Source: a virus
Virus genome (UHGV): UHGV-0335973
Length of the DNA: 38,029 bases
Strand: one strand, 5' to 3'
In this document: positions 22,208 to 30,309 of the stretch, piece after piece
Numbering within the stretch: the first letter of the stretch is position 1
Layout: every line of letters starts with the position of its first letter
Made by a program: the position numbers and the translations under genes
Notes under the pieces: model-generated
Seen by the model: the letters and a program-made list of their open reading frames with translations, nothing else
What the model was told of the DNA's origin: nothing
Databases searched by the model: none

Positions 22208-23558
22208 GTGAGCAACCCGGACGCTCTTCCATTTTTGACAGAGATGACTGTCGCTGATATAATCTCTAAGCAAGCAAAGCACGGAGTGAGTTTCAACCGA
22301 AGAAATGCTCGGTGGTATGTTCACCTCCTTAAAGAGATTATTGTTAATATTGACAGAGAGTTGATTCCTCTCTTACCTAAGATGAGATTAGACGGCTCTA
22401 CTTATATGAAGCCGTTTAAGAAGTCTGGAGCTTTGCAGAAGTGGCCTCAAGCTTATTGTGATAGGGTTGGACTTAAGAGAGAAGATATTGGTGGAGCTTT
22501 CACCTGTGTCGAATATGTAGACTTTGACCCATCGAAAGATGCACGAGTTAAAGAAGCTCTTATGGATGAGGGCTTTCTTCCTCCAGAGTTTAACGTATCT
22601 AAGAAGCCTTGGAATACTTTCGAAATTAAGAAAGACATGAGAAAGTATGGAACATACCAAGCATGGTATACTGCTTGGATGCGAGGCAATGCTAAGCAGA
22701 AGCAGACAGCCGAGATGGTTGACGCTGATATTAAGAAGTTCTTAGAAAAGCATTTCAGGTTTAAAACTAAGAACTACATGAAGGCTTATGTATTTGGTTT
22801 AGGTTTAAACCCTAACCGACGTAATCCTGTAACGTTTGATGAGATTAAGAAAGCACTAGCCACATCAAACAAGTGGCCTACAGCTCCTACAAACCTCGAG
22901 GAGACTCTTGAAGAAGGGTTAGGGGGTGAGCTAGGGAGTGTCGGAAGTTTGCTTAAGAGACGCGTTGTAGCGGCTCACAGGCTAGGTCTTATCAGTGGAC
23001 TCATAGCAAAGGAGCGCGAAGATGGTAAACTTTCGGCAGAAGCTAACAGCTGCGCTACGCCGACTTTTCGATTCAAACACCGTATCGTGGTTAATATTCC
23101 CTCCCGTGGTTTGTTTGGTCATGAGTGTCGCAGTTTGTTTGAATCTGACTATAACTCAGATGATGATCACTCTCGTCCTTTCGTTATTACTAACGTTGTT
23201 CCTGATGGTTGTTATATACGAAAAGGTACTAACGTAATTTATGAGAAAGGTAAACCGGGGAAGAAAGACAAACCTGTAGGTGCTTACAAATATTACATAC
23301 CCGCTGGTAAAGAAGTATTCTTAGGGTATGATGGTTCTGGGCTTGAACTTCGTATGCTCGCTCACTACCTCATTAAAGAGTGTAGGGATATGCTTGCTGA
23401 GGCAATCGAAGAGAACAATCCAGCTAAGAAAGCTCTGGCAGAACGTGGTTTAGCTTCTGCTATTATGTATCGTGATATTCTCCTTGAAGGTGATATCCAC
23501 TCCCACAACCAGAAACTTGCTGGTCTTCCTACTCGTGACAACGCTAAGACGTTTATCT
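22208..23558 (+). CDS. DNA polymerase (family A, T7 gene 5-like polymerase domain), exon 1
   Basis: motif A GYDGSGLELRMLAHY; DIHSHNQKLAGLPTRDNAKTFI = start of motif B; track stop 23558-23560 is created by the intron. Confidence 0.75.
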
Positions 23559-24264
23559 GACGTAAATGGATACTTCGAGAGTAATCTCGTCGATTAAATT
23601 GGGTGAACTCAGGGAAACTCTCTAGTAGACAATCCTGAGCCAAGCAAGTATTCTATAGCAACTCAACAAGGAGGTGCTTATGGAATATACAACTGTAACT
23701 AAAACTAAAGAAGAACAGACTGCCGAGGCAGGTAAATACCCTCAAGGTCAGTTCAACCCAAAACCTTGCCGTAATTGCTCAAAAGATTTTCAACCAAATG
23801 CACCATCTGAACATTATTGCTCTGATGGATGCAAAGATAGAGGCTGGAGAAATTCATACTTCAAACGAATGTATGGAATCACAGCCGATGATTACGAAAA
23901 GATGTACGCTGATCAGGATGGGAAGTGTGCTATCTGTAAGGGCGAAGGATTTGTAATGGCAACACATCACAGAATTAGACTTGTGGTTGATCATTGCCAT
24001 GAATCTGGAGTAATACGTGGTCTGTTGTGTCACAACTGCAACAGAGCTTTAGGGCTACTGAAAGATGATGTTAGCCGATTAGAAACAGCTATAGAATACT
24101 TGAAGGTGCAACGACTATCCGAAAGGAGTACACCGGAAGCTGATGCCGGTGGAAGCGCCCAACCCCTCGACAGAGGGTGATGATATAGTCTATCCTACAC
24201 GGCGACGTGTAGCAGTTCATAAGAGAACGGGCAGGAGTGTTGCGGCTCCTGTCGAATATACGAG
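23559..24264 (+). mobile_element. group I intron (706 nt) with endonuclease VII-type HNH ORF
   Basis: P1 pairing exon UAUCU with intron GGAUA (~23568); 5' and 3' segments homologous to intron 1 with compensatory changes in two hairpins; splicing yields KTFIYAFNYGAGD, matching T7 KTFIYGFLYGAGD spacing. Confidence 0.65.
23674..24180 (+). CDS. intron-encoded HNH endonuclease (endonuclease VII family)
   Basis: CAICKGEG...VVDHCHESGVIRGLLCHNCNRALG motif; AAGGAGG SD. Confidence 0.65.
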   Translation: MLMEYTTVTKTKEEQTAEAGKYPQGQFNPKPCRNCSKDFQPNAPSEHYCSDGCKDRGWRNSYFKRMYGITADDYEKMYADQDGKCAICKGEGFVMATHHRIRLVVDHCHESGVIRGLLCHNCNRALGLLKDDVSRLETAIEYLKVQRLSERSTPEADAGGSAQPLDRG

Positions 24265-25339: not shown

Positions 25340-25355
25340 GTCTAAAGGATTTGAC

Positions 25356-25748
25356 ATGAATATTGGTTTAGACTATGATGACACTTACACAGCAGATAGA
25401 CGTCTGTGGAGAGATGTGATAGGTTTAATGAAAGAGTACGGACATGATGTAAGATTCGTGACTTTCCGTTTCTCAGAGCCTAATGGTTATGATAACGTGG
25501 ATATCCTCTACGATGCAGAGACCCTGCAAATCCCTGTCATCTTTTGTAATGGTGTGCAGAAGGATGATGTGTGTCGACAGTTAGGTTTCTTTGTAGATAT
25601 CTGGATTGATGACTTCCCTGTTGGAATCCCCAAAAAGGACCACCTAGACGGTATGCTGAAGGGCGTAAGACTTAATGACCTTAGGGCAGCACCTCCTGTA
25701 GAAATAGCCGCCCCTGTGTACTCTGAAGAGCCTTTGGTGATTCGATGA
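25356..25748 (+). CDS. putative HAD-like phosphatase (short)
   Basis: N-terminal GLDYDDT (DxDxT) motif; ATG 25356 with AAAGGA SD preferred over track start 25338. Confidence 0.35.
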   Translation: MNIGLDYDDTYTADRRLWRDVIGLMKEYGHDVRFVTFRFSEPNGYDNVDILYDAETLQIPVIFCNGVQKDDVCRQLGFFVDIWIDDFPVGIPKKDHLDGMLKGVRLNDLRAAPPVEIAAPVYSEEPLVIR

Positions 25749-26240: not shown

Positions 26241-26456
26241 ATGGAATACATTGATAAATATTCAAGTGAAGATTCAACAGACGCTGAAGTTTTATTTATA
26301 CTAAAAACAGACTGTCTTGAACATGGTCAACTTATCAATTTCATCGAGTTGGCAAAACTTAAAGAAGAGATCGATCAACTATATAGTGATGAGCAATCCA
26401 GATTACTTTCTCTATCCCTTCTAGGTGATTTAACTTGCGATGGTTGCATGATATGA
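26241..26456 (+). CDS. hypothetical protein (71 aa)
   Basis: ORF with AGGAG SD. Confidence 0.4.
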   Translation: MEYIDKYSSEDSTDAEVLFILKTDCLEHGQLINFIELAKLKEEIDQLYSDEQSRLLSLSLLGDLTCDGCMI

Positions 26457-26926
26457 TAGAAGATCTTCTTGATGAGTTCTTTGTTTGTGATTTATCATCT
26501 GGAAAAGTGTTCTGGAGAATTCACAACGGAACAAAATGCAGGCAAGGCGACGAGGCAGGAACTTCAAAAAAGGATGGAAGAGTACTTATTCGAGTGAAAG
26601 GAAGAGCCATTTACAGATACCACATCATTTGGTATTTTGCTAATGGCGTTTTACCTAAAGATCAAATAGATCATATTGATCGAAACCCTTCCAATGATTC
26701 CATAGGCAACCTTAGAGAAGTTAACAACGAGAATAACTCTTGGAACAAGGGTTTGAACTCTAACAACACATCAGGGGCTAAGGGTGTATACCTCAATTCA
26801 AGAGGGAAGTACATAGCCAATATACACATTAAAGGTAAAACTAAATACCTAGGAACTTTCTCAACCCTAGAGGAAGCCGTCTCTGTTAGAAACAGAGCGG
26901 AGGAAGATCACAAATTAACTATCTAA
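26435..26926 (+). CDS. freestanding HNH endonuclease with AP2-like DNA-binding domain
   Basis: IDHIDRNPSNDSIGNLR HNH motif; SGAKGVY...YIANI..KGKTKYLGTFSTLEEA AP2-like motif. Confidence 0.6.
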   Translation: MRWLHDMIEDLLDEFFVCDLSSGKVFWRIHNGTKCRQGDEAGTSKKDGRVLIRVKGRAIYRYHIIWYFANGVLPKDQIDHIDRNPSNDSIGNLREVNNENNSWNKGLNSNNTSGAKGVYLNSRGKYIANIHIKGKTKYLGTFSTLEEAVSVRNRAEEDHKLTI

Positions 26927-26935
26927 GAGGTCTTT

Positions 26936-27439
26936 ATGGCTGAAGTTTATTTTGCAGGAGATGGTCACTTAGGTCATCGCAACATCTGTAGTTTTCGTAA
27001 GCAATTTAAAACCATCGAAGAACATGACAAAGAAATTCTAGCTGCATTTGATCATGTAACTAAGCGAGACAAAATCTTCTTTACCGGTGATTGGGTGTTT
27101 GAAAAGTATGCCCTTGATATCATCGCTGAAGTAAAAGGAGAGAAGCATCTAGTCTTAGGGAACCATGACAGGTTAGAACTTCTCCCTGATATGATGAAAG
27201 TCTTCCGTAGAATCTCTGGTGATTATAAATATAAAGAGTTTTGGGTAACTCATATCCCTATTCACACTGATGAGATGAGAGGAAAGTTTAACATTTATGC
27301 TCATACACACAACCATGTAATTGATGATTGGAGATATTTCTGTACATCAATGGAGCAAATTAACTATAAAGCTGTTTCTCTGCAAGAGATTAGGAAGGTC
27401 TTTGATGAAAGAAGAAAAGAACAAGATCTCGTTATTTAA
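26936..27439 (+). CDS. calcineurin-like metallophosphoesterase
   Basis: GDGHLGH, GDW, GNHD, THIP, HTH metal-ligand motif series. Confidence 0.6.
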   Translation: MAEVYFAGDGHLGHRNICSFRKQFKTIEEHDKEILAAFDHVTKRDKIFFTGDWVFEKYALDIIAEVKGEKHLVLGNHDRLELLPDMMKVFRRISGDYKYKEFWVTHIPIHTDEMRGKFNIYAHTHNHVIDDWRYFCTSMEQINYKAVSLQEIRKVFDERRKEQDLVI

Positions 27440-27985
27440 AGAACCTGTAGTACATAAAGACTCTATCAGAGATCAATATAATGAGATGTTAAAGAAACAA
27501 GCTGATTCTAATCTTCGTTATCAGAGGATAGTAGAACAATCTAACTTTAAAGGTTTACTTGAATGGTAACTTATATTGTTTACTTCTTAGCTTTCTTAGG
27601 AATAATCTTTTTATCTATTATTCTTGAATTTGGTTTAAGTAAGTTAGTTAATTATTTAGGTAATAAGTAATTATTATTCTTTTAAATAGAGAATCAAAGT
27701 CCCTAGGAGTCCCTACAACCTAAATCAAGGATTCCTTAATTCTCTATTTTTATCTCGCAGGTGGCTCCTGCCCTTCGGTACTTGCAAGGGATTCTGTGAA
27801 TTGCCCAATATACAAGCCTGCAATAACTTTATCAGCTATACAATATATACATTACTAGTGTGTTATATCTACTACCAAAGATACTTATATTATATAGCAC
27901 TCTTATCGGTATAAGCGTAATGTATACTATACATAACCGCTCAAAGAGAGCAACAATCTTTCAAATTAAATAAGGAAATTAAAAT

Positions 27986-28732
27986 ATGTCTATGATTCCA
28001 ACTATCGCAACTGCTTCCCGTAAATCCAACTACGATGTAATCCCTGATGGTGAATACGAAGCACGTATCGTTCGTGTAGTAGGTTTGGGTGTTCACAATC
28101 GTGACCCTTGGATTGACCCGAAGACCAAAGCAGTAACTCCTAAGAATCCGGCTTTCCGTATGGATTTAGCTTTCGAGCTGATTGGTGTTGATGCTACTGG
28201 TAAAGATTCCGATGGTAAGGCATTAGAACCACGTCCGGCTTGCCAGTTCAAGAGCTATGATGTAAACCCACGAGCTAAGAACTCTGGTATTCTTGATCTC
28301 TGCAAGATGATTGACCCAAGTATTCAAGCACTGAAAGGTGATCTGTCTTGGTTCAAGGATGTTCTGTTAGGTCAGCCTGTTAACATTCTGGTTAACTCTT
28401 ATACTAACAAAGCTGGTGAAGTTAAAAACTCCATCAAGACCATTTCTCCAATCCCAACCAAATATCGTGCAGCAGTTGGTGAAGCTCGCAGTCCTCTGGT
28501 ATTCTTCGAACCATATGCTGAAACCGATGAGAACGTAGCATCCTATCAACTGATGTTCCCGTTCCAGCGCAACCTGCTTACCCAAGCTAATGACGCTAAG
28601 AACATGCCTCTGGCTGGTCGTGAAATTACTCGTGCTTCTGAAACAGAACAGAAAGAAGCTACTCCTTCAATCCCTACGATTGATAAAGAGCCTGCTTCTA
28701 CCTATGAAGATGACAACGACTCTCCTTTCTAA
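27986..28732 (+). CDS. putative ssDNA-binding protein with acidic C-terminal tail ending in Phe
   Basis: C-terminus YEDDNDSPF resembles acidic F-terminated tails of E. coli SSB and T7 gp2.5; strong RBS, long upstream intergenic region, terminator downstream. Confidence 0.45.
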   Translation: MSMIPTIATASRKSNYDVIPDGEYEARIVRVVGLGVHNRDPWIDPKTKAVTPKNPAFRMDLAFELIGVDATGKDSDGKALEPRPACQFKSYDVNPRAKNSGILDLCKMIDPSIQALKGDLSWFKDVLLGQPVNILVNSYTNKAGEVKNSIKTISPIPTKYRAAVGEARSPLVFFEPYAETDENVASYQLMFPFQRNLLTQANDAKNMPLAGREITRASETEQKEATPSIPTIDKEPASTYEDDNDSPF

Positions 28733-28754
28733 GTAACTCTCCTTGTTATAGCTT

Positions 28755-28778
28755 AGCCACCTCCGGGTGGCTTTTTTC
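28755..28778 (+). terminator. rho-independent terminator
   Basis: GCCACC-TCCG-GGTGGC hairpin followed by TTTTTT. Confidence 0.55.
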
Positions 28779-29025
28779 GTTGGAGATAACATGCAAAACA
28801 CATTAAGTGATAACTTAGGGTTTATCGTTTTCTCAGCTCTTGTATTCTTTGGTGGTATGAAGTTCAATGAATACAGAACAGATAGTAACAACCTCGATAA
28901 AGAGAAACACCAACAAGAGTTAGAGATTGAAAGAAGTAAGGCAGCTGATGAAGTTGCTCAGAGGGTTCTTAATGGTTTATCTAACTGGAAGAAGAACACG
29001 GAGACTGTTTATAAAGAGATGCATT

Positions 29026-30309
<1,284 letters not shown>

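What the first reader, a model, noticed from the sequence alone, without database searches (positions are those of the whole stretch)
27570..27985. Long structured AT-rich intergenic region upstream of the SSB gene
This is the largest non-coding stretch on the + strand. It contains an 11-bp inverted repeat (AAATAGAGAAT 27684-27694 / ATTCTCTATTT 27739-27749) enclosing smaller palindromes, two GC hairpins (GCAGG...CCTGC, CCCTT...AAGGG), TTGCAA and TATA-rich promoter-like elements and the TAATGTATACT motif. Candidate functions are a strong promoter or regulatory region, a small RNA, or a replication origin.
Basis: seen in the sequence. Interest (0 to 1): 0.45.

Follow-up and report, generated by a model that had tools for sequence, protein, structure and literature searches.

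The report
Hidden leftward promoter and noncoding RNA
The gap upstream of the likely SSB gene of this phiEco32-like coliphage holds the published phage-sigma promoter P40 plus an apparently undescribed, conserved twin promoter on the opposite strand, which probably makes a ~160-nt structured noncoding RNA of unknown function.

Summary
The window is a Kuravirus (phiEco32/SU10-like, about 98% identical). The finding is the gp41-gp40 spacer.

**What checks out**
- All listed elements exist.
- The true non-coding part is 27671-27985 (315 bp). This is the largest gap in the gene cluster.

**Already known**
- TAATGTATACT is the published gp36-sigma middle promoter P40.

**New**
- A second perfect motif, TAATGTATATA, lies on the minus strand, preceded by TTGGTAGTAGATA at the same spacing as in promoter P68.
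- Both boxes are essentially invariant in 29 relatives, while the spacer between them varies freely.
- The predicted start is 27839(-).
- A hairpin begins at the predicted +1 (+3 in one relative) in every lineage, built from four unrelated stem sequences. In the window's own type it folds only on the minus strand.
- Next come a swappable central domain (four forms) and a 96-nt module that stays about 95% identical even where gp40 is only about 71% identical.
- The module ends in a large hairpin flanked by A and T tracts, which looks like a bidirectional terminator.

**Limits**
- There is no Rfam hit, no conserved ORF, and no E. coli or phage target.
- Transcription, RNA ends and function are untested. 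A replication-origin role is not excluded.

The parts
27563..27670 (+). gp41, a 35-aa hydrophobic small ORF.
   Evidence: It is annotated as phi32_41 in phiEco32 and matches PHROG 24970 at E 1e-24. It is absent from ECBP2, XT32, Bas87, Bas88 and Paul. GC is 0.21.
27677..27780 (-). Nearly invariant 3' module of the predicted leftward RNA. It comprises the large hairpin, a linker, hairpin 2 and GAAGGG.
   Evidence: 80 of 96 alignment columns are invariant across 16 distinct versions, including relatives whose gp40 is only 71% identical. Indels of -1, -2 and +1 nt in ECBP2-type phages break every reading frame.
27684..27749 (.). Large imperfect hairpin flanked by A and T tracts. It is a candidate bidirectional intrinsic terminator: the end of the upstream rightward operon and the 3' end of the leftward RNA.
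   Evidence: The + strand folds at -17.8 kcal/mol (z -3.3) and is followed by UUUUUAU. The - strand folds at -23.2 kcal/mol (z -3.1) with a 16-bp lower stem using two G-U pairs, followed by UAUUUAAAA here and CUCUUUUAAAA in L208/L210. The generic terminator scan did not call it, because the stem is AU-rich and the loop long.
27757..27771 (.). Hairpin 2: GCAGG, a 5-nt loop, CCTGC.
   Evidence: It folds at -7.9 kcal/mol on either strand. One compensatory double change, GCTGG/CCAGC, is seen in L206.
27772..27822 (-). Variable central domain of the predicted RNA (form A in this window).
   Evidence: Four unrelated or partly related forms A-D (44-79 nt) are bounded by invariant UUGCA and GAAGGG. 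Internal hairpins show compensatory changes: CUG/CAG to CCG/CGG in ECBP2, and CGUC/GGCG versus CCUU/AAGG in form C (read by eye).
27823..27839 (-). 5'-terminal stem-loop of the predicted leftward RNA (+1 to +17).
   Evidence: There are ten sequence types and four unrelated stems (AUAGCU, AGAGUUA, AUCUCU, ACAUC). All fold as one hairpin, starting at the predicted +1 (at +3 in HC25922) and ending just before UGCA. The window type folds only on the minus strand: -2.9 kcal/mol, z -6.5, against 0 kcal/mol on the plus strand.
27844..27854 (-). -10-type element TAATGTATATA of the newly recognised leftward promoter ('P-anti'). G(-11) is at 27850 and the predicted start is A 27839.
   Evidence: It is an exact match to the published consensus tAATGTAtA. 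It is invariant in 23 of 24 close relatives, and is TAATGAATATT in four distant ones. In phiEco32 it is the only exact consensus site outside the six published promoters.
27866..27878 (-). -35-type element of P-anti, TTGGTAGTAGATA (TTGGTA at -39..-34).
   Evidence: The 13-mer occurs exactly twice in the window, here and in promoter P68 at 16492-16504, at identical spacing to AATGTA. It places G at -37 and A at -34, the bases contacted by the gp36 C-terminal domain in the P68 cryo-EM structure (PMC12276001). TGGTAGT is invariant in all 29 relatives while the 10-11-nt spacer varies at nearly every position.
27918..27928 (+). P40, the published gp36-dependent middle promoter of gene 40 (TAATGTATACT). 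The predicted start is about 27933.
   Evidence: The SU10 S2 table lists the identical sequence. P40 is among the six phi32_gp36 promoters. The motif is invariant in 24 relatives while its -35 region varies. TAATGTA also lies upstream of gp40 homologues in Privateer, GAP52 and BUCT695.
27933..27985 (+). Predicted 5' UTR of the gp40 mRNA, with the invariant block AACCGCTCAAAGAGAGCAACAATCT and the Shine-Dalgarno sequence AAGGA at 27972-27976.
   Evidence: One search gives the conservation. The fold is not unusual (z -0.4). The weak Rfam 'DUF2815 RNA' hit matches only the ribosome-binding-site part (15.2 bits against a threshold of 41.2).
27986..28732 (+). gp40, a probable OB-fold ssDNA-binding protein. 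It is followed by a strong terminator at 28755-28780.

Best explanation
The gp41-gp40 spacer is a compound transcription-control region built around two back-to-back promoters for the phage sigma factor gp36.

**Rightward.** The published promoter P40 (start about 27933) makes a monocistronic gp40 mRNA that ends at the terminator at 28755.

**Leftward.** A second promoter that I could not find described ('P-anti') has the same -35 and -10 boxes and spacing as the strong middle promoter P68. It should start transcription at about 27839 on the minus strand, once gp36 and gp79 appear in mid-infection.

Its product is a non-coding RNA of roughly 160 nt, made up of:
- a 5'-terminal stem-loop starting at the predicted +1, probably protecting the 5' end;
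- a central domain that is exchanged between phage lineages;
- a sequence-invariant 3' module of two hairpins.

The large A/T-tract-flanked hairpin (27684-27749) probably ends this RNA. In the other orientation it probably ends the upstream rightward operon.

The invariance of the 3' module, against free drift of the 5' stem, argues that the module is read by sequence, by a partner that does not co-evolve with the phage. A host protein or RNA is the simplest candidate.

**Shown:** the sequence elements, their conservation pattern, covariation in the 5' hairpin, and the absence of coding potential.

**Inferred:** that the promoter fires, where the RNA ends, and what it does.
For: **The promoter**
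- It matches the consensus exactly, and its 13-nt -35 box is shared only with P68 at the same spacing.
- In the whole phiEco32 genome it is the only consensus-grade site besides the six published promoters.
- It shows the conservation pattern expected of a working promoter, with boxes invariant and spacer and discriminator variable, in 24 close relatives and in 5 distant ones.
- The cryo-EM work on P68 shows that G-37, A-34, T-12 and G-11 are the contacted bases, and all four are present here.

**The RNA**
- The hairpin begins at the predicted +1 (+3 in HC25922) in all 10 sequence types. Four stem sequences are unrelated, and 5 of the 10 types are matched by at most 1 of 1000 composition shuffles.
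- RNAalifold finds both-sides-changed pairs only in this hairpin.
- The window-type stem pairs only on the minus strand, because its G-U becomes A-C on the plus strand.
- The whole 167-nt minus transcript folds at -45.8 kcal/mol (z -2.5), against -35.3 kcal/mol (z -1.3) for the plus strand.
- Compensatory changes are also seen in hairpin 2 and in the central hairpins.
- The 3' module is about 95% identical where gp40 protein is 71% identical.
- Frame-breaking indels and the absence of a conserved ORF rule out coding.

**The terminator**
- The hairpin is significant on both strands and flanked by A and T tracts. The U-tract on the minus strand is better in the L208-L212 lineage.
Against: - No transcript data were available, so the start site, the 3' end and the very existence of the RNA are predictions.
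- The accessible literature lists only six gp36 promoters. The primary paper (Pavlova 2012) could not be read, so the site may have been tested there and found silent, or simply not mentioned.
- Covariation support is strong only for the 5' hairpin. The 3' module barely varies, so its fold is untestable: one compensatory pair, with 35 of 500 shuffles as good.
- One upper-stem pair is G-U on the plus strand but A-C on the minus strand, so strand evidence inside the large hairpin is mixed.
- The minus-strand U-tract after the hairpin is weak in this window (UAUUUAAAA), and the generic scan called no terminator. Read-through antisense transcription is therefore possible.
- In four distant relatives the -10 box is AATGAA rather than AATGTA, and one metagenomic contig has AATATA.
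- No target, partner or Rfam relative was found.
Confidence: 0.55

Rival explanations
1. Transcription-activated replication origin. The leftward gp36 promoter fires toward the most AT-rich DNA of the region (27563-27756). Its transcript, or the act of transcribing, opens the duplex or primes leading-strand synthesis, as at the T7 primary origin (phi1.1A/B promoters plus an AT-rich stretch) and the T4 ori(uvsY)/ori(34) origins (middle promoter plus an unwinding element). The invariant module would then be a DNA or R-loop recognition site for replication proteins.
For: - A promoter points against all neighbouring genes, with no ORF to serve.
- The DNA downstream has GC 0.21-0.30, the lowest in the window.
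- The site sits next to the probable SSB gene and inside the replication-gene cluster.
- The sequence invariance is compatible with a DNA-level site.
- The tandem AGTCCCTA pair at 10-bp spacing changes in concert in both copies in ECBP2-type phages.
Against: - The RNA-specific signals do not fit a pure DNA site: a covarying 5' hairpin starting at the predicted +1, and G-U pairs that work on one strand only.
- A strongly self-folded RNA ending at a terminator-like hairpin is a poor R-loop former.
- The AT-rich stretch shrinks to about 40 bp in phages that lack gp41.
- The 8-mer repeat is at chance frequency.
- There is no GC-skew inflection.
- More distant relatives with the same replication genes lack the element altogether.
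Confidence: 0.15
2. Plus-strand-only function. The conserved hairpins serve the rightward transcripts as a terminator, attenuator or RNase III-type processing site between the upstream operon and gp40. The minus-strand promoter is a silent or weak by-product, for example an old duplication of P68, or it acts only as a head-on barrier to read-through.
For: - The plus-strand hairpin is followed by the best U-tract (UUUUUAU) in every relative and always lies 10-110 nt after the last upstream gene.
- gp40 is otherwise bracketed as its own unit.
- The -35 box is identical to that of P68, which is compatible with duplication.
- One upper-stem G-U pair favours the plus strand.
Against: - A decaying duplicate would not keep both boxes invariant while its spacer varies at nearly every position across 29 genomes.
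- The hairpin at +1..+17 has no role on the plus strand. It cannot even form there in the window-type sequences carried by 9 of the 29 relatives.
- A simple terminator does not need about 95% sequence identity in its loops.
Confidence: 0.15
3. Long cis-antisense RNA. P-anti transcripts read through the weak minus-strand terminator into gp41, gp42 and the phosphoesterase gene. They then down-regulate those genes by RNA duplex formation, RNase III cleavage or transcriptional collision at middle and late times.
For: - The minus-strand U-tract is weak in this window, and no other minus-strand terminator was found nearby.
- The promoter class implies firing after the early phase.
Against: - The upstream gene content is variable: gp41 is present or absent, phiEco32 lacks the phosphoesterase, and this window has an extra HNH gene. 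The element itself stays invariant.
- The conserved, structured part lies entirely in the spacer.
- In the L208-L212 lineage the hairpin is followed by UUUU.
Confidence: 0.1

Closest known systems
phiEco32 gp36-dependent middle and late promoters (P6, P13, P26, P40, P58, P68; Pavlova et al. 2012, as cited in PMC8948821 and PMC12276001)
   Same: P40 in this window is one of them. P-anti carries the exact tAATGTAtA element and the same TTGGTA box, at the same distance, as P68, the promoter solved in the gp79-gp36-RNAP open complex.
   Different: P-anti is not among the six published promoters. It lies on the strand opposite to the whole middle-gene cluster and has no ORF downstream. All published promoters sit directly upstream of genes, and at least one published search scanned only the gene-sense strand.
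Small non-coding RNAs of phages with their own promoter and terminator (lambda oop, P22 sar, P1/P7 c4, T4 band C/D RNAs). This comparison is from my own knowledge.
   Same: It is a short, structured, non-coding transcript made from a dedicated promoter inside a protein-gene cluster and ending at a hairpin.
   Different: There is no sequence or structure relation to any Rfam family. In the conserved part it is not complementary to a neighbouring gene, unlike oop, sar or c4. It depends on a phage-encoded sigma factor. It has a swappable central domain and an invariant 3' module.
Transcription-dependent phage origins (T7 primary origin, T4 ori(uvsY) and ori(34)). This comparison is from my own knowledge.
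   Same: A phage-specific (middle-type) promoter fires into AT-rich, non-coding DNA within the replication-gene region.
   Different: The transcript here is strongly self-structured with covarying stems and a terminator-like end. There is no experimental origin mapping. The AT-rich segment is dispensable in several relatives.
Bidirectional intrinsic terminators
   Same: It is a hairpin flanked by an A-tract on one side and a T-tract on the other, placed between convergent transcription units (the upstream operon and the P-anti RNA).
   Different: The stem is AU-rich, with a long, sequence-invariant internal region of 38 or more nt. It fails a standard terminator scan.

Membership tests
gp36 (phiEco32 sigma) promoters | Consensus element tAATGTAtA centred near -11.5 | tested here: met
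   P40 has TAATGTATA at 27918-27926 (+). P-anti has TAATGTATATA at 27854..27844 (-). Both are invariant in close relatives.
gp36 (phiEco32 sigma) promoters | -35 region contacted by the gp36 C-terminal domain (G at -37 and A at -34 in P68) | tested here: met
   P-anti has TTGGTA at -39..-34, identical to P68. P40 has ATAGCA, with A at -34 but A at -37, and this region is not conserved.
gp36 (phiEco32 sigma) promoters | Located directly upstream of a middle or late gene | tested here: not met
   This is met for P40 (gene 40). It is not met for P-anti, which has no conserved ORF downstream on the minus strand. This lowers the claim 'P-anti is a classical member' but not the claim 'it works like one'.
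gp36 (phiEco32 sigma) promoters | Transcription start 6-8 nt downstream of the motif, made by core RNA polymerase plus gp36 and stimulated by gp79 | not testable with these tools
   This needs primer extension or in vitro transcription. It has been published for P40 and is unknown for P-anti.
Any described RNA family (Rfam 15) | Covariance-model score at or above the family's gathering threshold | tested here: not met
   There were no hits at gathering thresholds in the whole window. At E up to 10 only chance-level hits appeared. The 'DUF2815 RNA' hit scored 15.2 bits against a threshold of 41.2 and lacked its hairpin.
Structured non-coding RNA (generic) | Base pairs maintained by compensatory substitutions | tested here: inconclusive
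   This is clearly met for the 5' hairpin (10 sequence types, 4 unrelated stems). One event each is seen in hairpin 2 and in the central hairpins. The 3' module is too invariant to test (35 of 500 shuffles).
Intrinsic terminator | Stable GC-rich stem-loop immediately followed by a U-tract | tested here: inconclusive
   The hairpin is stable (z about -3 on both strands). It is followed by UUUUUAU on the plus strand and UAUUU or CUUUU on the minus strand. The stem is AU-rich with a long interior, and the consensus scan found 0 terminators here.
Transcription-primed replication origin (T7/T4 type) | Phage-specific promoter followed by an AT-rich unwinding region, with initiation mapped there | not testable with these tools
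   The sequence layout is present: a promoter, then DNA of GC 0.21-0.30. GC skew is uninformative. Origin mapping is required.
Single-stranded DNA-binding protein (for gp40, the 'SSB' of the title) | OB fold plus an acidic C-terminal tail ending in a hydrophobic tip | tested here: met

The most novel reading that the evidence does not exclude
The leftward transcript is a dedicated, gp36-driven effector RNA. Its invariant 96-nt 3' module binds a host component that cannot co-evolve with the phage, such as a defence protein, an RNase, Hfq or CsrA, or RNA polymerase. The swappable central domain would tune specificity between phage lineages. This would make it a new class of host-directed decoy or anti-defence RNA in virulent coliphages. 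Alternatively, the RNA is the long-sought primer or activator of the Kuravirus replication origin.
Probability: 0.2. Interest if true: 0.75.

Novelty: new member of a known kind. Interest (0 to 1): 0.5.

Why it matters
phiEco32 is the model for sigma-factor replacement by a phage (gp36 and gp79, with recent cryo-EM structures). Its transcription map is treated as complete, with six gp36 promoters.

A seventh consensus-grade promoter would add an unrecognised player to that programme. It points against the whole middle-gene cluster and drives a conserved non-coding RNA.

Kuraviruses are widely used in therapy and biocontrol cocktails. A conserved regulatory RNA, or a replication origin, in the largest spacer of the replication region would matter for engineering these phages and for understanding how they take over the host.

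The proposal can be tested directly with one Northern blot or one in vitro transcription assay.

Tried and rejected
- **Rfam and tRNA scans.** Rfam at gathering and permissive thresholds, and a tRNA/tmRNA scan, found nothing. The 'DUF2815 RNA' hit upstream of the SSB-like gene looked attractive in context, but it matches only the ribosome-binding site and gp40 is not a Pfam DUF2815 protein.
- **Sigma-70 promoter and terminator scan of the spacer.** Results were at chance level.
- **Coding potential.** The open +1 frame from 27690 and the minus-strand 32-aa ORF at 27725-27823 were rejected. They lack proper starts, are destroyed by indels in ECBP2-type phages, and do not survive replacement of the central domain.
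- **Host mimicry.** There was no blastn match of 27671-27860 in 5,426 E. coli genomes. Short pairing sites cannot be seen this way.
- **Trans targets.** blastn-short and RNAduplex against all start regions in the window gave nothing better than shuffled controls.
- **Second copies.** There is no other copy of the module in phiEco32 or in other phage groups.
- **Metagenome and viral scans with a 16-mer from the hairpin.** These returned at least 170 loci, but only 7 carried the element.
- **Long-range helix UUGCAGG/CCUGCGA.** RNAalifold proposed it. I rejected it because the compensatory change in L206 preserves the competing local hairpin and breaks the long helix.
- **GC skew as an origin signal.** It follows the direction of transcription only.
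- **Primary papers.** Pavlova 2012 and Savalia 2008 are not held in the library.
- **A prophage sRNA paper that used Kuraviruses.** It turned out to be unrelated.

Full report
**Identity of the window**

The 2 kb around the finding is 96-98% identical to Kuraviruses such as phiEc_1, SU10, NJ01 and 172-1. The window runs in reverse orientation to the phiEco32 GenBank record.

The finding is the spacer between phi32_41, a 35-aa ORF at 27563-27670, and phi32_40 at 27986-28732. In the phiEco32 annotation this 315-bp spacer is the largest gap of the 38-kb early/middle cluster. The next largest are 235 and 181 bp.

**Check of the observation**

- The inverted repeat is at 27684-27694 / 27739-27749, and extends to 14 nt at 93%.
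- GCAGG/CCTGC is at 27757-27771 and CCCTT/AAGGG at 27771-27790.
- TAATGTATACT is at 27918-27928.

An 11-bp perfect repeat on its own is only marginally unusual, since 16 of 500 dinucleotide shuffles reach it. The hairpin it closes is clearly non-random, with z about -3 on both strands. Sigma-70-like hexamer pairs are at chance level.

**What is already known**

phiEco32 encodes its own sigma factor, gp36. This is the ORF at 29286-29930 in the window, which gives a weak Sigma70_r2 hit.

Six gp36-holoenzyme promoters have been published: P6, P13, P26, P40, P58 and P68. Their consensus is tAATGTAtA, with starts 6-8 nt downstream (PMC8948821 text and supplement).

The SU10 paper lists 'aagcgtaatgtatactatacataaccgctcaaagagagcaa between CDS37 and CDS38' as a middle promoter. 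That string is identical to window 27914-27954.

The geometry comes from the gp79-gp36-RNAP/P68 structure, with T-12, G-11, G-37 and A-34 as contacted bases. By that geometry the P40 start falls at about 27933, giving a 53-nt leader.

A strong terminator at 28755-28780 follows gp40, so gp40 is its own transcription unit.

The P40 motif is invariant in 24 relatives while its -35 region varies. TAATGTA also precedes the gp40 homologue in Privateer, GAP52 and BUCT695.

**The new element: a second promoter on the opposite strand**

TAATGTATA occurs exactly three times in the window: at P58, at P40, and on the minus strand at 27854..27846.

- **The -35 box.** The minus-strand copy reads TAATGTATATA and is preceded by TTGGTAGTAGATA (27878..27866). 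This 13-mer occurs only twice in the window, the other copy being in P68 at 16492.
- **Spacing.** In both places TTGGTA lies at -39..-34 relative to G-11. So the bases contacted by gp36 in the P68 structure are all in place.
- **Uniqueness in phiEco32.** In the complete phiEco32 genome there are nine AATGTA[T/G]A sites. Six are the published promoters and two are poor intragenic matches. The ninth is this site, at phiEco32 coordinate 36719 on the + strand.
- **Conservation in close relatives.** In 24 distinct sequences TGGTAGTA and TAATGTATATA are invariant, apart from one metagenomic contig and a G-to-T change in the ES17 group. The 10-11-nt spacer and the discriminator differ at nearly every position.
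- **Conservation in distant relatives.** Five relatives with gp40 71-82% identical keep TGGTAGT and an AATG(T/A)A box at a 23-24-nt distance, again with unrelated spacers.

I call this promoter P-anti. Its predicted start is A 27839 on the minus strand. P-anti and P40 are back to back, with starts 94 bp apart.

The published promoter searches I could read considered gene-upstream positions, and in one case only the gene-sense strand. I found no mention of this site. The primary paper (Pavlova 2012) is not held in the library.

**What P-anti would transcribe**

There is no conserved ORF downstream. The only minus-strand ORF (32 aa, TTG start) begins in a segment that is replaced in other lineages. 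Indels of -1, -2 and +1 nt in ECBP2-type phages break all frames through the conserved block. The predicted RNA has three parts.

**1. A 5' stem-loop at +1 to +17 (27839..27823).**
- The 29 relatives show ten sequence types with four unrelated stems: AUAGCU/AGCUAU, AGAGUUA/UAACUCU, AUCUCU/AGAGGU and ACAUC/GAUGU.
- Every type folds into one hairpin that ends just before an invariant UGCA. It begins at the predicted +1, or at +3 in HC25922, which has a 2-nt insertion.
- RNAalifold finds both-sides-changed pairs only here.
- In the window-type sequences, carried by 9 of the 29 relatives including phiEco32, one pair is G-U. The stem therefore forms on the minus strand (-2.9 kcal/mol, z -6.5) but not on the plus strand (0 kcal/mol).

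**2. A central domain (27822..27772) in at least four forms.**
- Forms A-D are 44-79 nt long and bounded by invariant UUGCA and GAAGGG.
- They assort independently of the flanks. For example, rybdy3 combines the MN05-type 5' stem with form A.
- Their internal hairpins show compensatory changes.

**3. A 96-nt 3' module (27780..27677).**
- It comprises hairpin 2 (GCAGG, 5-nt loop, CCUGC), a linker GAGAUAAAA, and the large hairpin.
- 80 of 96 columns are invariant across 16 distinct versions, including phages whose gp40 is only about 71% identical.
- Hairpin 2 has one compensatory change, GCUGG/CCAGC in L206.
- Otherwise the module is too conserved for a covariation test, with 35 of 500 shuffles as good.

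The complete 167-nt minus-strand sequence folds at -45.8 kcal/mol (z -2.5, 3/200). The plus strand folds at -35.3 kcal/mol (z -1.3, 19/200).

**The large hairpin as a two-way terminator**

It is flanked by an A-tract and a T-tract.
- On the plus strand it is followed by UUUUUAU in all relatives. It always lies shortly after the last upstream gene, whether or not gp41 is present.
- On the minus strand it is followed by UAUUUAAAA here and by CUCUUUUAAAA in the L208-L212 lineage.

The generic scan does not call it, because the stem is AU-rich and the interior long. I read it as a probable bidirectional terminator. It would end the upstream rightward operon and would give the P-anti RNA a length of about 160 nt. 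This step is inferred.

**Distribution**

The element is present in all Gordonclarkvirinae examined (Kuravirus, Suseptimavirus, Nieuwekanaalvirus) and in intermediate metagenomic relatives.

It is absent from a sister group that has a different 145-bp spacer (L027-L029, L209, L213, L215, L216). It is also absent from Grimontviridae, which have short spacers.

It has no second copy in phiEco32 and no relative in other phages. It has no match in E. coli genomes or in Rfam. No convincing trans target was found in the window.

**Interpretation**

The best-supported reading is a divergent pair of gp36 promoters. P40 serves gp40, and P-anti makes a roughly 160-nt structured non-coding RNA in mid-infection.

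The contrast between a freely drifting but always-paired 5' stem and a sequence-frozen 3' module suggests two different roles. The 5' stem looks like a generic stability element. The 3' module looks as if it is read by sequence, by a partner that does not co-evolve with the phage. That points toward a host factor. This last point is inference only.

The rivals are:
- a T7/T4-style transcription-activated origin, for which the layout fits but the RNA-specific signals and the dispensable AT-rich segment argue against;
- a purely plus-strand terminator or processing site with an inert antisense promoter, which is contradicted by the promoter's conservation pattern and by the minus-strand-only 5' stem;
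- a long cis-antisense RNA.

None of these can be excluded without transcript or origin mapping.

**The 'SSB' label**

gp40 has no Pfam or PDB sequence match. Other evidence points to ssDNA binding:
- A confident AlphaFold model (pLDDT 82) has an OB-type barrel.
- Foldseek's weak top hits are SSB, PriB and RPA.
- The family ends in an acidic tail with invariant ...PF, with consensus DDDxPF. From my own knowledge, this resembles the E. coli SSB tip.

The label is therefore reasonable but unproven.

**Verdict**

The added value is an apparently undescribed, consensus-grade gp36 promoter on the opposite strand and the conserved non-coding RNA it predicts.

I rate the finding as a new member of a known kind: a phage small RNA with its own promoter and terminator. 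It is of moderate interest and is testable with a single Northern blot or in vitro transcription assay.

Noticed in passing
window 27933-27985: The predicted gp40 5' leader contains a block, AACCGCTCAAAGAGAGCAACAATCT (+4..+28), that is invariant in 24 relatives except for one loop base. It carries a small GCUC/GAGC hairpin. It could be a translational operator, for example for autoregulation by the SSB-like protein, but its fold is not unusual (z -0.4).
   Followed up: partly
window 27986-28780: gp40 is a self-contained transcription unit running from P40 to a strong terminator, AGCCACCTCCGGGTGGCT followed by TTTTTCG, at 28755-28780. gp40 models as an OB-fold protein with an SSB-like DDDxPF tail but has no Pfam or PDB sequence match.
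   Followed up: yes
L007 (ES17) 1040-1280; also EcM-vB1, L084, L169: The ES17 group carries an insertion of about 150 bp between the -35 box of P-anti and P40. It contains an annotated 47-aa ORF with no Pfam match. In this group the -35 box is TGGTAGTATATC.
   Followed up: partly
L027-L029, L209, L213, L215, L216 (about 145 bp upstream of the gp40 homologue): A sister lineage (gp40 63-70% identical) replaces the whole element with a different conserved spacer. It has TATAATGGATAAAGC followed by GCTTAGCTTAGCTTTGATATGCTAGCTTTGCTAG-type repeats. This may be that lineage's own promoter and regulatory hairpin.
   Followed up: no
window 26435-26926 (+): A 163-aa HNH_3 endonuclease ORF (Pfam E 9e-10) sits between the gp43 homologue and the phosphoesterase gene. 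It is absent at this position in phiEco32 and WFI101126. SU10 and WFI101126 instead carry an HNH gene just downstream of gp40. So homing endonucleases come and go around this locus.
   Followed up: partly
window 27563-27670 and 26936-27439: Gene content left of the spacer is mosaic. gp41 is missing in ECBP2, XT32, Bas87, Bas88 and Paul, where the phosphoesterase ORF is longer. phiEco32 lacks the phosphoesterase gene altogether. The spacer module stays invariant throughout.
   Followed up: partly
window 22235-22263 (+) and 25351-25379 (+): There is a perfect sigma-70 consensus promoter (TTGACA, 17 nt, TATAAT, with an upstream TG; 12/12) at the start of the 450-aa ORF 22208-23560. A second match scores 11/12 near 25351. 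Both lie inside the 'middle' gene cluster.
   Followed up: no
window 27698-27715: A tandem AGTCCCTA pair at 10-bp spacing lies inside the large hairpin. Both copies lose a C in concert in ECBP2-type phages (AGTCCTA...GTCCT). The 8-mer pair itself is at chance frequency in the window.
   Followed up: partly
phiEco32 genome (L205, L217, L218), -39..-34 of all seven gp36-type promoters: All seven sites share a -35-like hexamer with an invariant A at -34: TTGGGA, TTAAGA, ATAAGA, ATAGTA, TTAGCA, TTGGTA and TTGGTA. Older papers described these promoters as single-element. This agrees with the 2025 cryo-EM report of a -35 contact.
   Followed up: partly
L084 (metagenome contig ERZ1034915 NODE-75): One metagenomic relative has AATATA instead of AATGTA in the P-anti -10 box. 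This is either a natural promoter-down variant or an assembly error.
   Followed up: no
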